From the NCBI GenBank assembly GCA_000004985.1, contig GG738861.1: a DNA stretch of 64,000 bases; one strand, 5' to 3'. Position numbers and translations under genes: made by a program. The notes under the pieces were generated by a model. That model was not told where the DNA came from. It worked only from the letters and a program-made list of their open reading frames with translations, and did no database searches. The stretch is from Naegleria gruberi. Taxonomy: Eukaryota. Below are positions 4,730 through 64,000 of this stretch, piece by piece; positions within the stretch are counted from its first letter, which is position 1; each line of letters begins with the position of its first letter.

Positions 4730-4802
4730 GCCGACATAGCTCAGTTGGGAGAGCGTAAGACTGAAGATCTTAAGGTCCCTGGTTCGATCCCTGGTGTCGG
4801 CA
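4730..4802 (+). tRNA. tRNA-Phe: tRNA-Phe (anticodon GAA), 73 nt, intronless
   Basis: The sequence is GCCGACATAGCTCAGTTGGGAGAGCGTAAGACTGAAGATCTTAAGGTCCCTGGTTCGATCCCTGGTGTCGGCA. The acceptor stem has 7 base pairs (GCCGACA/TGTCGGC) with discriminator A. The A-box TAGCTCAGTTGG and B-box GGTTCGATCC are present, and the anticodon loop CTGAAGA gives GAA. It is near-identical in arms to classic eukaryotic tRNA-Phe. A T-run follows (ggcaaatttta). Confidence 0.93.
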
Positions 4803-59547: not shown

Positions 59548-61332
59548 ATGCCATCACAAGATAATACAGAACAAACAAGCTTTTCCTTCAGAGTGCGGGT
59601 TGCTGACAATGCCAAAGTTAAAGAAGAAAAGTTCATCGTGGTTGATTCTCAGAAATTACCAAAGAGCATTGATGAATTATTCAAATTGGGAAAAGCCAAA
59701 TTAAATTTAAAGAAGAAGGTGCTTGCACTTTATAATGGAAAATCAGGACAAGTCATTGAATCGGATAGTATTATTCAAAAGTTATTCAATGATTTTACAA
59801 CAGCTAAGAGAAAACAATTACAGGAAGAACAATTAATTGGATCAACAGGATTAGGATCAAAGCCTTCCGATGATTTATTCTTTGTTTTTTCGACCAATTT
59901 AAAACAAACTTTCCAAGGAAAGATTACGCAACCAGTTGAATCGAGTGACAATAATACAACAACATCTTCATCATCAGTTGAAAAGACACCAGAAGTAGTT
60001 GTCTTGATAAAGGACAGTTGGTTGGATGATGGAGCTATTAAACAATTGCAAGATACTGCTCGTACATTGAAATGTGTAAGAAGAGCCACTGGTCAACCTG
60101 ACCTTCATCCAGGTAAAACATTCCCAGTAGGAGCTGCCATTTCAACTGTAGATTACATCTACCCACCACTCGTTGGTAATGATATTGGGTGTGGTATGAG
60201 TTTGTATCAAACTAATTTAACATCAGATAGAGGATTGAAACAATTAGAAAAATGGGTGAAACAACTCAACGGATTAGAAAGAGGAGGAATTAGCGGCGAT
60301 GAAAGTAGACCTGTATTGGATGTTGAAAGAAAATTCTTTGGATTGGATTCTAGTGAGGATTTGCTTTCAGCCACATCTACTAACTCTGAAAATGTAGATT
60401 TTGAATTACATGAAGCCACAACTGAATTTATTGAAAAATATTTAACCTATTTTGATGTAGATTTGGGTCAACTCCAAGAAGTTACTCCAAATCTTGAATC
60501 GGAAGAGGGTGTTACCTCTCCGCCAAAGAGTGAAAATAAGGCCTTGGAATTTGCCATTCGTCAACTTGGTACTGTCGGAGGTGGAAATCACTTTGCAGAG
60601 CTTCAAATCGTCGAAAAGATTTGTAATGAAAAGATTTTTGAAGAAGAATTGAAACTTTCAAAGGATGCTTGCTTTTTGATGGTTCATAGTGGATCAAGAT
60701 CCCTTGGTGATCATATTCTTGGAGAACATGAGGATAAATTTGGAAATAGTGGCTTGCTTTTTGACTCGGATGATGCAAAGCACTATATGAAATGTCACGA
60801 CAATGCTTGTAGATGGGCAAAGGCCAACAGAGCTCTCATTGCCAGAAAGTTCCTTACTTGCATTAACGGAAATGGTAAAATGATTCTTGACATTTGCCAC
60901 AACAATGTTGTAGAAAAACAAGTTGAAAATGAAAGAGTTTTCATTCACAGAAAGGGTGCTGCACCAACAGATGCTGGTTACTTCTGCATTCCTGGTTCGA
61001 GAGGATCATTCTCCTATCTTGTTCGTGGACGTGAAGAAGATATTGAAAGCCAAATTCGTTGTAATTTTTCAGCTGCACACGGTGCTGGCAGAAAATGGAA
61101 GCGTTCCAAATCAGTTGGTATGGCCGCAAAGGAAAATGTTCAATCCTTCACAGTTACTGACCTCGGATCTCATGTCATTTGTGAAGATAAGAATTTACTT
61201 TTTGAAGAACAACCTGCTGCTTACAAGGATATCGATGCAGTCATTTCAGATTTAGTTCATTTTGGGGTTGTTGAAGTTGTTGCCATTATGAGACCACTCA
61301 TTACCTACAAGATGAGAAACTGTTGCCATTAA
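59548..61332 (+). CDS. RtcB-family RNA 3'-phosphate ligase-like protein with an about 170-aa N-terminal extension (divergent from the canonical eukaryotic HSPC117-type RtcB)
   Basis: RtcB signatures are present: 'QPDLHPGKTFPVGAAIS...VGNDIGCGMSLY', 'GTVGGGNHFAELQ', 'IHRKGAAPT', 'IPGSRGSFSYLVRG' and 'SAAHGAGRKWKRS'. The N-terminal about 170 aa ('FRVRVADNAKVKEEKFIVVDSQKLPKSIDELFKLGKAKLNL...') is extra. Confidence 0.65.
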   Translation: MPSQDNTEQTSFSFRVRVADNAKVKEEKFIVVDSQKLPKSIDELFKLGKAKLNLKKKVLALYNGKSGQVIESDSIIQKLFNDFTTAKRKQLQEEQLIGSTGLGSKPSDDLFFVFSTNLKQTFQGKITQPVESSDNNTTTSSSSVEKTPEVVVLIKDSWLDDGAIKQLQDTARTLKCVRRATGQPDLHPGKTFPVGAAISTVDYIYPPLVGNDIGCGMSLYQTNLTSDRGLKQLEKWVKQLNGLERGGISGDESRPVLDVERKFFGLDSSEDLLSATSTNSENVDFELHEATTEFIEKYLTYFDVDLGQLQEVTPNLESEEGVTSPPKSENKALEFAIRQLGTVGGGNHFAELQIVEKICNEKIFEEELKLSKDACFLMVHSGSRSLGDHILGEHEDKFGNSGLLFDSDDAKHYMKCHDNACRWAKANRALIARKFLTCINGNGKMILDICHNNVVEKQVENERVFIHRKGAAPTDAGYFCIPGSRGSFSYLVRGREEDIESQIRCNFSAAHGAGRKWKRSKSVGMAAKENVQSFTVTDLGSHVICEDKNLLFEEQPAAYKDIDAVISDLVHFGVVEVVAIMRPLITYKMRNCCH

Positions 61333-61550
61333 TCCTAGTTAACAATGACTGGAAAACACATTGAAGCATCATTTAAGAGTAGACATTGCACTCTTTTATC
61401 CAATGATTCAAACCCTTCCTTCCAGCTTCGCCCAGGACTCAACTTTACAATGGAGGTGAATCTTCAACTCGAAATAATATCATTGCACACGCTGGGTTGA
61501 GTTTGGAAAATTTCAATTAAAATTAAAATTTTTTAAAAAAATATTTGAAA

Positions 61551-62891
61551 ATGCTCGCCTCCAAGATCGTCCAAAGAACAACCAGCAAGATTTCTTGTTC
61601 CGCAATCAAGAAGAATGACTCTGTTCGTTGTTTCTCATCATCATCTATCATGAATGCCGAAGCTAAAAAGACACTCTTGTATGATTTCCATGCTAAACAT
61701 GAGGCTACTTTTGTTGATTTTGCCGGATACAAGATGCCTGTGATGTATCAATTAAGTAAATTTAAAGATGCCTTGAAGAGAGAACATATGCAATGCAGAA
61801 ATTCTGCAGCTTTGTTTGATGTTTCTCACATGGGTCAAGTTAAAGTTTCTGGTGCTGATGCTCAAGAATTCCTTGAAAAGGTCACACCTGCAAATATTAT
61901 TCAATTGAAGATTAATCAAGCTCGTCTTACACAATTCACCAATGAAAATGGTGGTATTTTGGATGATTTGATGATCACAAAGAAATCCGAATCTAATGGA
62001 GTTTTTGATTTTTATGTTGTTATCAATGCTGCTTGTGTTGATAGTGACATGGCTCATTTGGCTACTCAAGTTTCCACTTTGAAGTGTGATAGAACTGGAA
62101 AGTCATTCAAGGAATCTGATTTAAAGATTGAAATGATTAATGGTAAGAGTTTAATTGCTCTCCAAGGTCCAAAGGCAGTTGAAGCCTTGTTGCCACTTTT
62201 GGAAAATGATACTGCCAGAGAAAGAGTTAAATCATTGAAATTCATGACTTGCTCTGATGAAGTTATTGTTTTACCAGGTGGTGAAAAGACCTCTGTTCAA
62301 GTTTCTAGATGTGGTTATACTGGTGAAGACGGTTTTGAAATTTCAGTTCCAGATCAATCAGTTGTTGCCATGTCAGGTGCCTTGTTGCAAGTTGGTGGTG
62401 CTGAACCATTGGTTGGTTTGGCTGGTTTGGGTTGCAGAGATACTTTGCGTCTTGAAGCTGGTTTGTGTTTGATGGGTCACGATATGACTCCAAAGATTAC
62501 ACCAATTGAAGCTGCTTTGAATTTCACAATTGCTAAGCGTCGTCGTGAAGAAGGTGGTTTCCCAGGTCATCATGTTGTCAAGAAGAATTTGGAAGAAGGT
62601 GTTCAACAATTGAGAGTTGGTTTCTCATATGGTCAAGAATTAGTTGGTTCTGGTAAGCCAGCTGTTATTGCTCGTGAAGGTTATAAATTCAAGGATTTGA
62701 AGACTGGTGAAGAAATTGGTTATGTGACCAGTGGTACTTTGTCACCATGTTTGGGTCATCCAATTGGTATGGGTTATATTAAGAGTGAATTTGCTAAGGA
62801 AGGTACTGAATTTGGTATTCAAATCAGAAACACTTTGCAAGTTGCCAAGATTACCAAGATGCCATTCGTTCCAACCAGATATGCTAAATAA
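61551..62891 (+). CDS. AMT: Aminomethyltransferase (glycine cleavage system T protein), mitochondrial
   Basis: 'LLYDFHAKHEATFVDFAGYKMPVMY', 'LFDVSHMGQVKVSG', 'SRCGYTGEDGFEIS' and 'GLGCRDTLRLEAGLCLMGHDM' are GcvT hallmarks. The N-terminal 35 aa are presequence-like. The real ATG is at 61551; the track start at 61545 is TTG. Confidence 0.88.
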   Translation: MLASKIVQRTTSKISCSAIKKNDSVRCFSSSSIMNAEAKKTLLYDFHAKHEATFVDFAGYKMPVMYQLSKFKDALKREHMQCRNSAALFDVSHMGQVKVSGADAQEFLEKVTPANIIQLKINQARLTQFTNENGGILDDLMITKKSESNGVFDFYVVINAACVDSDMAHLATQVSTLKCDRTGKSFKESDLKIEMINGKSLIALQGPKAVEALLPLLENDTARERVKSLKFMTCSDEVIVLPGGEKTSVQVSRCGYTGEDGFEISVPDQSVVAMSGALLQVGGAEPLVGLAGLGCRDTLRLEAGLCLMGHDMTPKITPIEAALNFTIAKRRREEGGFPGHHVVKKNLEEGVQQLRVGFSYGQELVGSGKPAVIAREGYKFKDLKTGEEIGYVTSGTLSPCLGHPIGMGYIKSEFAKEGTEFGIQIRNTLQVAKITKMPFVPTRYAK

Positions 62892-62956
62892 ATTTACAAT
62901 CCAATTTTGAATCTTGTTCTAAAATTCAACACTTTCTAAAACTCATTACAAAAAAA

Positions 62957-63898
62957 ATGGAAACATTACAAGATGAGTGGATTATTATTTGTTCTTTTAT
63001 GAATGTTAGAAGTTTATTAAATTTTCAATTGGCATGCAGGGATTTCTATCGGATTGGATCTTGTGATATCATATGGAAGAGTATTTATCAATATTATTGG
63101 AAAAGTTGGTCATCAGATTTGCATCCGAATCAAAATATAAAGTTTGGATTGTGTGGTCATCTCTCCATCATTAACAAGGAAATGCCAACAGAAAATTACA
63201 AATATCATGTGATGGGAGTGTATGAATTGCAACATTTAAGAACGGATGGGAAGATTAAATTTCAAAAATATGAGTCAATACTGAAAAAACCACTTGATGA
63301 AATGCATTCGAAAGTGACTCACATGAAGATATCAATTTTAGGAGAAGGAAATGGAGTCACATCTCTGTTGATGAGATTGAAATTAGGAGCATTCCCACAA
63401 ACAGCATTAAATATTGGAAGTCTGCCGGCTATGGAAACCTTTAGGCATGAAACTGTAAAAGAAGGAAGAAAATTCTCAATTGATTTCATTGACCTTTCAG
63501 ATATTGGATATTCACGATTAATGCCATTGCTTTTGTATGGTTGTGATCTTTTCGTTCCAACATTTTCTCTCAATAATGCGCATTCTTCATTTGAAAGAGT
63601 TGAGATCAAGTGGATCCCAACAATTGAACATTACATGTGCAATGCACCAATTATAATATTGGGAACGAAACTAGATGAAAAAAGTAATACACACGTTATT
63701 ACAGAGAAGAAGTTATCACAACAGTCTAATTGTATCACTTATTATGAAATATCAGCACTCACAGCAGATGATGACCAAATGAATCAATTTGTTGAGCTAT
63801 GTGTCAAATCTGTTCTCATGACTCACAAACCAATAATAACAAGTGAGAACAGCTTTGCAACAACTTTTGGAAAACCAAAAAAATGTTTCCTTCAATAG
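62957..63898 (+). CDS. F-box-like N-terminus fused to a degenerate Ras-superfamily small-GTPase-like domain (313 aa)
   Basis: The F-box-like segment is 'WIIICSFMNVRSLLNFQLACRDFYRIGSCDIIWKSI'. The G1-like 'KISILGEGNGVTSLLM' lacks the P-loop Lys/Ser. The G4 motif 'ILGTKLDE' (N/TKxD) is retained. The later part resembles a Rho/Ras fold ('ISALTADDDQMNQFVELCVKSVL'). Confidence 0.45.
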   Translation: METLQDEWIIICSFMNVRSLLNFQLACRDFYRIGSCDIIWKSIYQYYWKSWSSDLHPNQNIKFGLCGHLSIINKEMPTENYKYHVMGVYELQHLRTDGKIKFQKYESILKKPLDEMHSKVTHMKISILGEGNGVTSLLMRLKLGAFPQTALNIGSLPAMETFRHETVKEGRKFSIDFIDLSDIGYSRLMPLLLYGCDLFVPTFSLNNAHSSFERVEIKWIPTIEHYMCNAPIIILGTKLDEKSNTHVITEKKLSQQSNCITYYEISALTADDDQMNQFVELCVKSVLMTHKPIITSENSFATTFGKPKKCFLQ

Positions 63899-64000
63899 AA
63901 ACTCGGTAATGTTTATTTGACAAAGTATTTGCTGTAAAAGGATTTGAGTGGCTGTAGGGTCTCTTGACTTTCAGTCATGCTATTGGACTGTGAAACATGA

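What the first reader, a model, noticed from the sequence alone, without database searches (positions are those of the whole stretch)
62957..63898. F-box-like module fused to a pseudo-GTPase
The Ras/Rho-like fold has lost the P-loop lysine and serine (GEGNGVTS) but keeps a TKxD guanine-specificity motif. It is preceded by an F-box-like helix-rich segment. This could be an SCF substrate adaptor built on a nucleotide-free GTPase scaffold. That combination is unusual.
Basis: seen in the sequence. Interest (0 to 1): 0.5.

Follow-up and report, generated by a model that had tools for sequence, protein, structure and literature searches.

The report
Naegleria F-box protein with dead Rho domain
This is a real gene of the amoeba Naegleria gruberi that joins an F-box (a ubiquitin-ligase docking module) to a Rho-type GTPase domain lacking the key nucleotide-binding lysine; the F-box+Rac architecture of this exact protein was already listed in a 2021 survey, so only the "dead switch" detail is new.

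Summary
The ORF at 62957..63898 (+), 313 aa, is real. The window is Naegleria gruberi NEG-M: both upstream neighbours match its proteins exactly.

Both domain calls hold.
- **GTPase domain (residues ~122-290):** Pfam Ras E=5e-11, Rac1 E=3e-13, AF2 pLDDT >90, TM ~0.8 to Rac structures.
- **F-box plus helical linker (residues ~3-48 and onward):** Pfam F-box-like scores 20.6 bits, just under the 24.3 cutoff. A family profile hits solved F-boxes (beta-TrCP1 E=1.3e-9). The modelled fold overlays Skp2 and Fbw7 F-boxes at 0.6-0.8 A.

The G domain is degenerate.
- The P-loop is GEGN-GVT.
- Switch-I Thr, the G3 Gly/Gln and the Rho insert are lost.
- TKLD, SAL and a basic CaaX tail (KPKKCFLQ) remain.

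The Lys-to-Val change is shared with a 43% paralogue. dN/dS against a 97% orthologue is 0.19, so this is not a pseudogene.

It is not new. Herman et al. 2021 (BMC Biol 19:142, Table S8) list this exact sequence as "Rac", "F-box", a newly created gene model, and call F-box the commonest extra domain on Naegleria GTPases.

Most likely it is a membrane-anchored SCF substrate receptor that works independently of nucleotide, analogous to RhoBTB. This function is inferred, not shown. Interest is low to moderate.

The parts
62957..63898 (+). Complete single-exon gene, 313 codons plus TAG, encoding F-box + helical linker + Rho-like degenerate G domain + CaaX tail
   Evidence: ORF list and sequence. 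The protein is identical to the sequence in Herman et al. 2021 Table S8, 'Rac / ACER01000199.1** / F-box'. dN/dS is 0.19 against the orthologue on L001.
62963..63100 (+). F-box (residues 3-48): TLQDEWIIICSFMNVRSLLNFQLACRDFYRIGSCDIIWKSIYQYYW. The canonical Leu-Pro is Leu-Gln.
   Evidence: Pfam F-box-like residues 11-45, 20.6 bits, E=3.8e-4, below the 24.3 cutoff. Family N-terminal profile hits beta-TrCP1 F-box at E=1.3e-9 plus about 30 other F-box proteins. The single sequence hits only F-box proteins, E=0.08-0.8. In the AF2 N-terminal model, 10-residue block means over residues 1-50 are pLDDT 78-90. Foldseek gives rmsd 0.6-0.8 A to Skp2/Fbw7 F-boxes.
63101..63319 (+). Helical linker (residues 49-121) between the F-box and the G domain. 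It is partly conserved with the paralogue (ENY..H, Y..IL.K..E).
   Evidence: Alignment A1. AF2 helices, with lower confidence. Foldseek alignments of 86-97 columns to the F-box + linker region of FBXW11, beta-TrCP, Fbw7 and FBXO3/4.
63320..63826 (+). Rho/Rac-like G domain (residues 122-290)
   Evidence: Pfam Ras E=5.3e-11. Rac1 E=3e-13. AF2 pLDDT mostly >90. Foldseek gives RACB, Rac3, Cdc42, RhoA, EhRho1 and N. fowleri Rac1 at TM (target) 0.73-0.85.
63341..63364 (+). Degenerate G1/P-loop GEGNGVTS: Lys replaced by Val134, Thr135 kept, loop one residue short
   Evidence: Alignment to Rac1. 123 of 139 aligned relatives have GxxxxGK[ST]. The paralogue P0004 has GDHHSGVT, so the same Lys-to-Val change.
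63491..63508 (+). Degenerate G3/switch II start DLSDIG, in place of DTAGQE. The DxxG glycine and the catalytic Gln are lost.
   Evidence: Alignment to Rac1. Motif tally across relatives.
63665..63676 (+). Retained G4 motif TKLD
   Evidence: The paralogue has TQKD, so the Lys is not conserved within the subfamily.
63752..63760 (+). Retained G5 motif SAL (EISALT, compare Rac1 ECSALT)
63872..63895 (+). Basic patch plus CaaX box (KPKK-CFLQ), a predicted prenylation (farnesyl-type, X=Gln) membrane anchor
   Evidence: Sequence. K306, K308, C310, L312 and Q313 are invariant in the orthologue and paralogue. Relatives end in CSLQ, CSIQ, CLIQ, CVIC. That X=Gln favours farnesylation is established knowledge and was not tested here.

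Best explanation
What it is. This is an expressed-type (selectively maintained) Naegleria gruberi gene for a three-part protein. The parts are an N-terminal F-box with a helical linker, a Rho/Rac-derived G domain, and a basic CaaX tail. The G domain has lost the Walker-A lysine, the switch-I Thr, the G3 Gly/Gln and the Rho insert. The protein belongs to the lineage-specific expansion of F-box-GTPase fusions already catalogued in Naegleria.

How it most likely works. None of these steps was tested.
1. The CaaX tail is prenylated and, together with the KPKK patch, holds the protein on a membrane.
2. The F-box docks onto Skp1-Cul1-Rbx1.
3. The Rho-like domain can no longer cycle between GTP and GDP. 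It acts as a constitutive protein-binding module that presents partners for ubiquitination. Plausible partners are Rho regulators or effectors that recognise the retained switch-II/alpha2 surface YSRLMPLLL.

In effect this would be an SCF counterpart of the Cul3 adaptor RhoBTB.
For: Identity of the locus: the neighbours are exact matches to N. gruberi EFC45815.1 and EFC45816.1.

Rho-like domain.

F-box:
- sub-threshold in the window protein;
- above threshold in paralogue P0004 (25.1 bits) and in relatives P0018, P0037, P0062, P0085, P0104;
- family profile gives beta-TrCP1 F-box at E=1.3e-9, and nearly all of 36 hits are F-box proteins;
- the modelled fold superposes on Skp1-bound F-boxes at 0.6-0.8 A.

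Degenerate G motifs.

Maintained by selection:
- the ORF is intact in two isolates;
- there are 9 synonymous and 7 non-synonymous differences, dN/dS 0.19, binomial p=0.0014;
- the Lys-to-Val change is shared with a 43%-identical paralogue, so it predates the duplication;
- the CaaX box and basic residues are invariant.

Published context: Herman et al. 2021 list this sequence as Rac + F-box, do not flag it as a pseudogene, and propose GTPase-linked ubiquitination in Naegleria.
Against: - No experiment or complex prediction shows Skp1 binding.
- The canonical F-box Leu-Pro is Leu-Gln, and the window protein alone falls below Pfam's F-box-like cutoff.
- Foldseek E-values for the small F-box model are weak (0.07-5), although its probabilities are high.
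- The N-terminus has low confidence in the full-length model.
- G4 and G5 are intact and Thr135 is kept, so residual guanine-nucleotide binding cannot be excluded.
- No substrate is known.
- Switch I is not conserved between the paralogues; P0004 has a 12-residue deletion there. This argues against a shared effector-type interface at that surface.
- dN/dS rests on only 16 substitutions.
Confidence: 0.5

Rival explanations
1. It is still a nucleotide-regulated switch. The G domain binds GTP or GDP (or another nucleotide) non-canonically through G4, G5 and Thr135, so that ligase recruitment or substrate binding depends on nucleotide. This is the 'GTPase-dependent ubiquitination' proposed for the family as a whole.
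For: TKLD and SAL are retained and Thr135 aligns with Rac1 Thr17. Family members P0009, P0018, P0037 and P0039 have intact GxxxxGKT, so the ancestral F-box-Rho was probably a real switch. This is the hypothesis of Herman et al.. From my own knowledge, RhoBTB3 binds ATP, which shows that atypical Rho domains can change ligand.
Against: The Walker-A Lys is gone and the loop is a residue short. Switch-I Thr, G3 Gly and the catalytic Gln are all lost. The paralogue has additionally lost the G4 Lys (TQKD) and 12 residues of switch I, which suggests relaxed constraint on the nucleotide pocket in this subfamily.
Confidence: 0.2
2. The F-box does not recruit substrates. Instead it controls the protein's own fate, through auto-ubiquitination and rapid turnover, or it forms a non-SCF Skp1 complex. 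The Rho-like domain would then be the functional scaffold at the membrane.
For: This role was suggested for the F-box of the trypanosome FYVE-F-box-GTPase TbFRP, which is rapidly processed (PMC3593210). Non-SCF Skp1-F-box complexes exist (established knowledge). No classical substrate-binding domain such as WD40, LRR or Kelch is present, unlike relatives P0085 and P0104, which add Kelch repeats.
Against: Nothing here distinguishes this from the substrate-receptor model. F-box proteins with non-canonical C-terminal domains (the FBXO class) commonly act as receptors.
Confidence: 0.17
3. It is a decaying member of a birth-and-death gene family, with an intact ORF but no function. The degenerate G motifs would simply reflect ongoing pseudogenisation.
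For: Herman et al. note recent birth-and-death dynamics and disrupted copies in the Naegleria F-box-Rab-like clades. The gene is missing from the reference annotation. It evolves faster than its neighbours: 97% amino-acid identity against 99.8-100%. No orthologue was found in N. fowleri or N. lovaniensis.
Against: dN/dS is 0.19, p=0.0014. A 313-codon ORF is intact in two isolates. The same Lys-to-Val change is preserved in a 43% paralogue that also keeps an intact F-box, G-domain core and CaaX. The G-domain core folds with pLDDT >90. The curators did not flag it as a pseudogene.
Confidence: 0.08
4. The N-terminal segment is not an F-box. It is a lineage-specific helical extension that resembles one by chance.
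For: The window protein is below the Pfam cutoff (20.6 against 24.3 bits). Leu-Pro is replaced by Leu-Gln. The single-sequence PDB E-value is only 0.08.
Against: All five single-sequence PDB hits are F-box proteins. The family profile reaches E=1.3e-9 and returns almost exclusively F-box proteins. The paralogue and relatives pass Pfam thresholds. The modelled fold matches Skp1-bound F-boxes at sub-angstrom rmsd. The published curation is independent of this work.
Confidence: 0.05

Closest known systems
Naegleria F-box-Rac/Rho fusion proteins (Herman et al. 2021, BMC Biol 19:142, Additional files 4 and 10)
   Same: This exact 313-aa sequence is listed there as 'Rac', additional domain 'F-box', newly created gene model on ACER01000199.1. 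Its paralogue XP_002674152.1 is listed next to it. The architecture is the same: N-terminal F-box, Rho-like domain, CaaX.
   Different: The paper does not comment on the lost P-loop lysine or the missing Rho insert in this pair. Most other family members retain GxxxxGKT. No member has been characterised experimentally.
RhoBTB (Rho domain + two BTB domains; Cul3 substrate adaptor in metazoa, Dictyostelium RacA, and also Naegleria)
   Same: An atypical Rho-type domain is fused to a cullin-RING-ligase docking module. The Rho domain is non-cycling or atypical and serves protein interaction or autoregulation (established knowledge). This is the same functional logic.
   Different: The docking module here is an F-box (Skp1-Cul1), not BTB (Cul3). 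The order is reversed, with the dock N-terminal. The protein is much smaller at 313 aa. It has a CaaX anchor, which RhoBTB lacks. No BTB hit was found, so this is an analogue and not a member.
TbFRP (FYVE-F-box-GTPase of Euglenozoa; PMC3593210)
   Same: An F-box lies immediately upstream of a Ras-superfamily G domain in an excavate protist. The membrane-targeting element plus F-box plus G domain logic is the same.
   Different: TbFRP has a FYVE domain for PI3P binding instead of CaaX, and its G domain is Rab18-like rather than Rho-like. The authors found no Naegleria orthologue. It is an independent fusion.
PseudoGTPases (G-domain proteins that have lost nucleotide binding and/or hydrolysis, such as the p190RhoGAP pG1/pG2 domains and CENP-M; GTPase-deficient Rnd/RhoH)
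   Same: A G-domain fold with missing catalytic and phosphate-binding residues (Lys16, Thr35, Gly60 and Gln61 equivalents).
   Different: Classification here is by sequence only. G4, G5 and the P-loop Thr persist, so the class (no binding, or binding without hydrolysis) is undetermined. The comparison rests on my own knowledge of that literature and not on a tool result.

Membership tests
F-box (Pfam PF12937 / PF00646) | Sequence match to the ~45-residue F-box profile above the curated threshold | tested here: inconclusive
   Window protein: F-box-like 20.6 bits against a cutoff of 24.3, E=3.8e-4. Paralogue P0004 scores 25.1 bits and passes. Relatives P0018, P0037, P0062, P0085 and P0104 pass both F-box models. 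The family profile hits solved F-boxes at E=1.3e-9.
F-box (Pfam PF12937 / PF00646) | Three-helix F-box fold | tested here: met
   AF2 N-terminal model: 10-residue block means over residues 1-50 are pLDDT 78-90, helices 2-13, 17-26, 28-34, 37-53. Foldseek top hits are almost all Skp1-bound F-box proteins, with rmsd 0.6-0.8 A over 36-42 columns to Skp2/Fbw7 and probability 0.9-1.0. E-values are weak at 0.07-5.
F-box (Pfam PF12937 / PF00646) | Conserved Leu-Pro at the start of helix 1 | tested here: not met
   The sequence is Leu-Gln (TLQDEW). The Pro is also absent in P0004, P0009, P0018, P0037 and P0039 (alignment). This feature is common in F-boxes but not universal.
F-box (Pfam PF12937 / PF00646) | Binds Skp1 and assembles into SCF | not testable with these tools
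Rho family of the Ras superfamily | Ras-like G-domain profile and fold, most similar to Rac/Rho/Cdc42 | tested here: met
   Pfam Ras E=5.3e-11. The best PDB hits are all Rac1, EhRho1, ROP, RhoB and Cdc42. Foldseek TM (target) is 0.73-0.85 to Rac/Rho/Cdc42.
Rho family of the Ras superfamily | Rho insert helix (~13 residues between G4 and G5) | tested here: not met
   G4-Asp to G5-Ser spacing is 26 residues, against 40 in 35 canonical relatives. AF2 shows only a short helix at 250-254 in this region.
Rho family of the Ras superfamily | G1 P-loop GxxxxGK[ST] | tested here: not met
   GEGN-GVT: Lys replaced by Val, one residue short, Thr retained.
Rho family of the Ras superfamily | G2 switch-I Thr and G3 DxxG(Q) | tested here: not met
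   In the Rac1 alignment the Thr35 equivalent is Pro, and DTAGQ becomes DLSDI.
Rho family of the Ras superfamily | G4 [NT]KxD and G5 SAx | tested here: met
   TKLD at residues 237-240 and SAL at residues 266-268.
Rho family of the Ras superfamily | C-terminal CaaX prenylation box | tested here: met
   CFLQ preceded by KPKK, with Cys, Leu and Gln invariant in the orthologue and paralogue. Actual prenylation was not tested.
PseudoGTPase | G-domain fold lacking residues required for nucleotide binding or hydrolysis | tested here: met
   Fold. Missing Lys16, Thr35, Gly60 and Gln61 equivalents.
PseudoGTPase | Demonstrated absence of nucleotide binding and/or hydrolysis | not testable with these tools
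   This needs biochemistry on the purified domain.
RhoBTB | Tandem BTB domains C-terminal to the Rho domain | tested here: not met
   No BTB hit at E<=1. The protein ends 23 residues after the G domain.
TbFRP (FYVE-F-box-GTPase) | N-terminal FYVE domain and a Rab-like G domain | tested here: not met
   No FYVE hit, and the G domain is Rho-like. The authors found no Naegleria orthologue.

The most novel reading that the evidence does not exclude
The pair formed by this gene and XP_002674152.1 would be the first described F-box pseudoGTPases. They would be farnesyl-anchored SCF receptors whose substrate-binding module is a nucleotide-free Rho 'decoy'. The decoy would constitutively capture Rho regulators or effectors (GEFs, GAPs, GDI, kinases) at a membrane and send them for degradation. 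This would be an independent SCF-based reinvention of the RhoBTB-Cul3 principle.
Probability: 0.25. Interest if true: 0.55.

Novelty: already known. Interest (0 to 1): 0.28.

Why it matters
The architecture links small-GTPase scaffolds to ubiquitin ligases. [quoted passage not shown]

This gene pair is a natural "switch-dead" version. If the predicted SCF assembly holds, it would show whether the Rho fold in these fusions works as a regulated switch or simply as a binding platform. It would also give a second, independent example, after RhoBTB, of a Rho-derived cullin-RING adaptor.

As a discovery it adds little. The gene, its Rac classification and its F-box are already in the literature. What is added here:
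- the detailed G-motif decay;
- the loss of the Rho insert;
- the shared ancestral Lys-to-Val change;
- evidence of purifying selection.

Tried and rejected
- **Word-indexed homologue searches.** Searches with the protein and with a three-sequence profile returned only the 97% metagenomic orthologue and the 43% N. gruberi paralogue. No orthologue with an intact G1 was found.
- **Motif strings in Table S8.** Searching for subfamily motifs (TYYEIS, QFVELC, GVTSLL, GVTDLL) to find an N. fowleri orthologue found only this gene. Sequences are printed there only for corrected or newly created gene models, so this is a weak negative.
- **Full-length AF2.** With a Rho-dominated alignment the N-terminus came out at pLDDT ~40, which is uninformative. 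A separate N-terminal model with 11 F-box-Rho sequences was needed.
- **Literature.** No paper contains both 'pseudoGTPase' and 'F-box'. 'Naegleria' + 'Skp1' gave nothing useful about SCF components in Naegleria. The presence of Skp1, Cul1 and Rbx1 is therefore assumed from general knowledge.
- **Rfam.** Only one tRNA in the whole window and nothing near the gene.
- **Prokaryotic, viral or contaminant origin.** Rejected, because both upstream neighbours are exact matches to N. gruberi NEG-M proteins on a 507-kb scaffold.
- **Sequencing error in the P-loop.** Rejected, because the independent contig L001 has the same GEGNGVTS.
- **Functional link to neighbours.** The neighbours are an RtcB-like ligase and the mitochondrial aminomethyltransferase. 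There is no evidence of a link, and this is a eukaryote without operons.
Full report
**1. What is at the coordinates**

A single uninterrupted ORF runs from ATG at 62957 to TAG at 63896-63898 on the + strand, 313 codons. An A-rich leader and an in-frame stop lie upstream.

The window is AT-rich (about 33% GC) and densely packed with long ORFs on both strands. The two upstream genes are exact matches to Naegleria gruberi NEG-M proteins on a 507-kb scaffold:
- 59548..61332, an RtcB-type ligase with an N-terminal extension, matches EFC45815.1.
- 61551..62891, aminomethyltransferase (glycine-cleavage T protein), matches EFC45816.1.

So the window is N. gruberi nuclear DNA. The 313-aa protein itself is not in the 15-billion-protein collection, which means it is absent from the reference annotation.

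**2. The Rho-like domain**

Pfam Ras matches residues 125-281 at E=5.3e-11, 42.8 bits against a cutoff of 21.6. The best solved relatives are all Rho-family: Rac1 (E~3e-13), Entamoeba Rho1, plant ROPs, RhoB and Cdc42.

An AlphaFold2 model built on 149 relatives gives pLDDT mostly above 90 from residue ~101 to ~290. Foldseek places it on Rac, Rho and Cdc42 structures with target-normalised TM of 0.73-0.85. These include the N. fowleri Rac1 crystal structure.

**3. How degenerate is it**

| Motif | Rac1 | This protein | Source |
|---|---|---|---|
| G1 P-loop | GDGAVGKT | GEGN-GVT: Lys16 to Val134, Thr17 kept as Thr135, one residue deleted | |
| Switch I | Thr35 | Pro | |
| G3 | DTAGQ | DLSDI: Gly60 and Gln61 lost | |
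| G4 | TKLD | TKLD, intact | |
| G5 | SAL | SAL, intact | |

Among the 139 best relatives that cover the P-loop, 123 have GxxxxGK[ST].

The spacing from the G4 Asp to the G5 Ser is 26 residues, against 40 in canonical Rho proteins. The Rho insert helix is therefore missing.

**4. The F-box**

For the window protein alone, Pfam F-box-like matches residues 11-45 at 20.6 bits, E=3.8e-4, just below the 24.3-bit cutoff. A single-sequence search of the N-terminal 122 residues against PDB sequences returns only five hits. All five are F-box proteins: beta-TrCP1, FBXW11 and FBXO3, at E=0.08-0.8.

The exhaustive representative search found full-length relatives with the same N-terminal module:

| Protein | Source | Pfam result |
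|---|---|---|
| P0004 | N. gruberi XP_002674152.1, 43% identity | passes F-box-like (25.1 bits) |
| P0009 | N. lovaniensis | both F-box models below cutoff (18.3 and 17.5 bits) |
| P0039 | Willaertia magna | F-box-like below cutoff (20.4 bits) |
| P0018 | sequencing-run assembly | passes both F-box models |
| P0037 | sequencing-run assembly | passes both F-box models |
| P0062 | JGI/IMG | passes both F-box models |
| P0085 | Stenamoeba | passes both F-box models |
| P0104 | Pelomyxa | passes both F-box models |

A profile of seven N-terminal regions hits the beta-TrCP1 F-box at E=1.3e-9, then FBXW11, FBXO3, Fbw7, FBXL5, Skp2, KDM2A/B, GID2 and FBXO4. Only one clearly unrelated protein appears among the 36 hits, a ribosomal protein at E=0.55.

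An AF2 model of residues 1-122 from an 11-sequence alignment gives 10-residue block-mean pLDDT of 78-90 across residues 1-50, with the expected helices. Foldseek returns almost exclusively Skp1-bound F-box proteins. Superposition is 0.6-0.8 A over 36-42 columns on Skp2 and Fbw7. Alignments of 86-97 columns to FBXW11, beta-TrCP, Fbw7 and FBXO3/4 extend into the helical linker. E-values are weak (0.07-5) because the domain is small, but probabilities are 0.9-1.0.

One defining feature is not met. The Leu-Pro at the start is Leu-Gln, and the Pro is missing in the whole family.

**5. The tail**

The protein ends in KPKK-CFLQ. Cys, Leu, Gln and two lysines are invariant in the orthologue and paralogue. 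Relatives end in CSLQ, CSIQ, CLIQ or CVIC. This is a CaaX box with a basic patch, which predicts a prenylated membrane anchor. That prediction rests on established knowledge and was not tested.

**6. Is it a live gene**

A metagenome contig (L001, ENA ERZ929261) carries the same three genes in the same order, with a 312-aa orthologue at 97% identity.

The two genes differ by 9 synonymous and 7 non-synonymous substitutions, giving dN/dS = 0.19. Under neutrality about 80% of changes should be non-synonymous, and the binomial p is 0.0014. The counts are small but the direction is clear.

The N. gruberi paralogue P0004 has GDHHSGVT. That is a P-loop of canonical length with the same Lys-to-Val change. 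The substitution therefore predates the duplication and has been kept in two lineages that also conserve the F-box, the G-domain core and the CaaX.

The paralogue has also lost the G4 lysine (TQKD) and 12 residues of switch I. This points to relaxed constraint on the nucleotide pocket while the rest stays constrained.

No orthologue of this subfamily was found in N. fowleri or N. lovaniensis.

**7. What is already known**

Herman et al. 2021 (BMC Biol 19:142, PMC8296547) curated Ras-superfamily GTPases of N. gruberi and N. fowleri.

Their Table S8 contains this exact 313-aa sequence. It is annotated 'Rac', ID 'ACER01000199.1**' (newly created gene model), additional domain 'F-box'. It is not flagged as a pseudogene and no orthologue outside Heterolobosea is recorded. 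XP_002674152.1 is listed on the line above with the same annotation.

Their supplementary text makes three relevant statements:
- Naegleria also has RhoBTB.

At least eleven Rac entries carry an F-box in the part of the table I read, some with Kelch and/or BTB domains as well.

An independent precedent is TbFRP, a FYVE-F-box-Rab-like GTPase of Euglenozoa. Its authors found no Naegleria orthologue.

I found no paper that combines 'pseudoGTPase' and 'F-box'. The degenerate P-loop of this pair is not commented on in the passages I read.

**8. Mechanism**

Shown here:
- domain identities;
- motif decay;
- purifying selection;
- a conserved CaaX.

Inferred:
- prenyl and basic-patch anchoring to a membrane;
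- F-box docking on Skp1-Cul1-Rbx1;
- the Rho-like domain acting as a constitutive, nucleotide-independent binding module, or as an intramolecular regulator as in RhoBTB.

The alpha2/switch-II segment YSRLMPLLL still resembles Rac YDRLRPLSY. Rho regulators commonly contact that surface, so they are plausible partners. This is speculation.

The rivals are residual nucleotide regulation, an F-box used for self-turnover or a non-SCF Skp1 complex, a decaying family member, and a spurious F-box. Each is weighed in the rival explanations.

**9. Verdict**

The architecture, and this very gene model, are already published. The incremental content is that this N. gruberi-lineage pair is a switch-dead, insert-less variant that is maintained by selection. 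Interest is low to moderate.

Noticed in passing
window 62957-63898: The gene is missing from the reference N. gruberi protein set. Its exact sequence is not in the 15-billion-protein collection, although both neighbours are. It exists only as a 'newly created gene model' in a 2021 supplementary table.
   Followed up: yes
window 59548-61332 (+): The RtcB-type RNA ligase homologue (EFC45815.1, 'predicted protein') has a ~165-residue N-terminal extension before the RtcB domain (residues 166-588). The extension has a weak KHA-like hit (E=0.044, below threshold), and no extra domain is confidently assigned.
   Followed up: no
window 59548-63898 vs L001 1-4196: Between the window and the metagenomic relative, synonymous divergence of the F-box-Rho gene (dS 0.050, 9 changes) is 3-5 times that of the adjacent aminomethyltransferase (0.010, 3 changes) and RtcB (0.015, 5 changes). 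Counts are small, and this could be noise or locally different constraint or mutation.
   Followed up: partly
P0085 (Stenamoeba stenopodia), P0104 (Pelomyxa schiedti KAH3742681.1), P0062 (JGI/IMG metagenome): F-box + Rho fusions also occur outside Heterolobosea, in Amoebozoa, with extra modules. The architectures are Kelch-F-box-Rho, Rho-Kelch-F-box-Vint(Hint), and 2OG-Fe(II) oxygenase-F-box-Rho. All three have intact GDGAVGKT. The 2021 table records no orthologues outside Heterolobosea for the Naegleria genes, so these may be independent fusions.
   Followed up: partly
window 4730-4802 (+): A single tRNA gene is the only Rfam match in the 64-kb window (67.9 bits).
   Followed up: no
L001 4208-5881 (-), beyond the window's 3' end: The gene downstream of the F-box-Rho gene in the relative is a 557-aa Ser/Thr/Lys-rich low-complexity protein on the opposite strand, with no Pfam hit on record. 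In the window it would start beyond position 64000.
   Followed up: no
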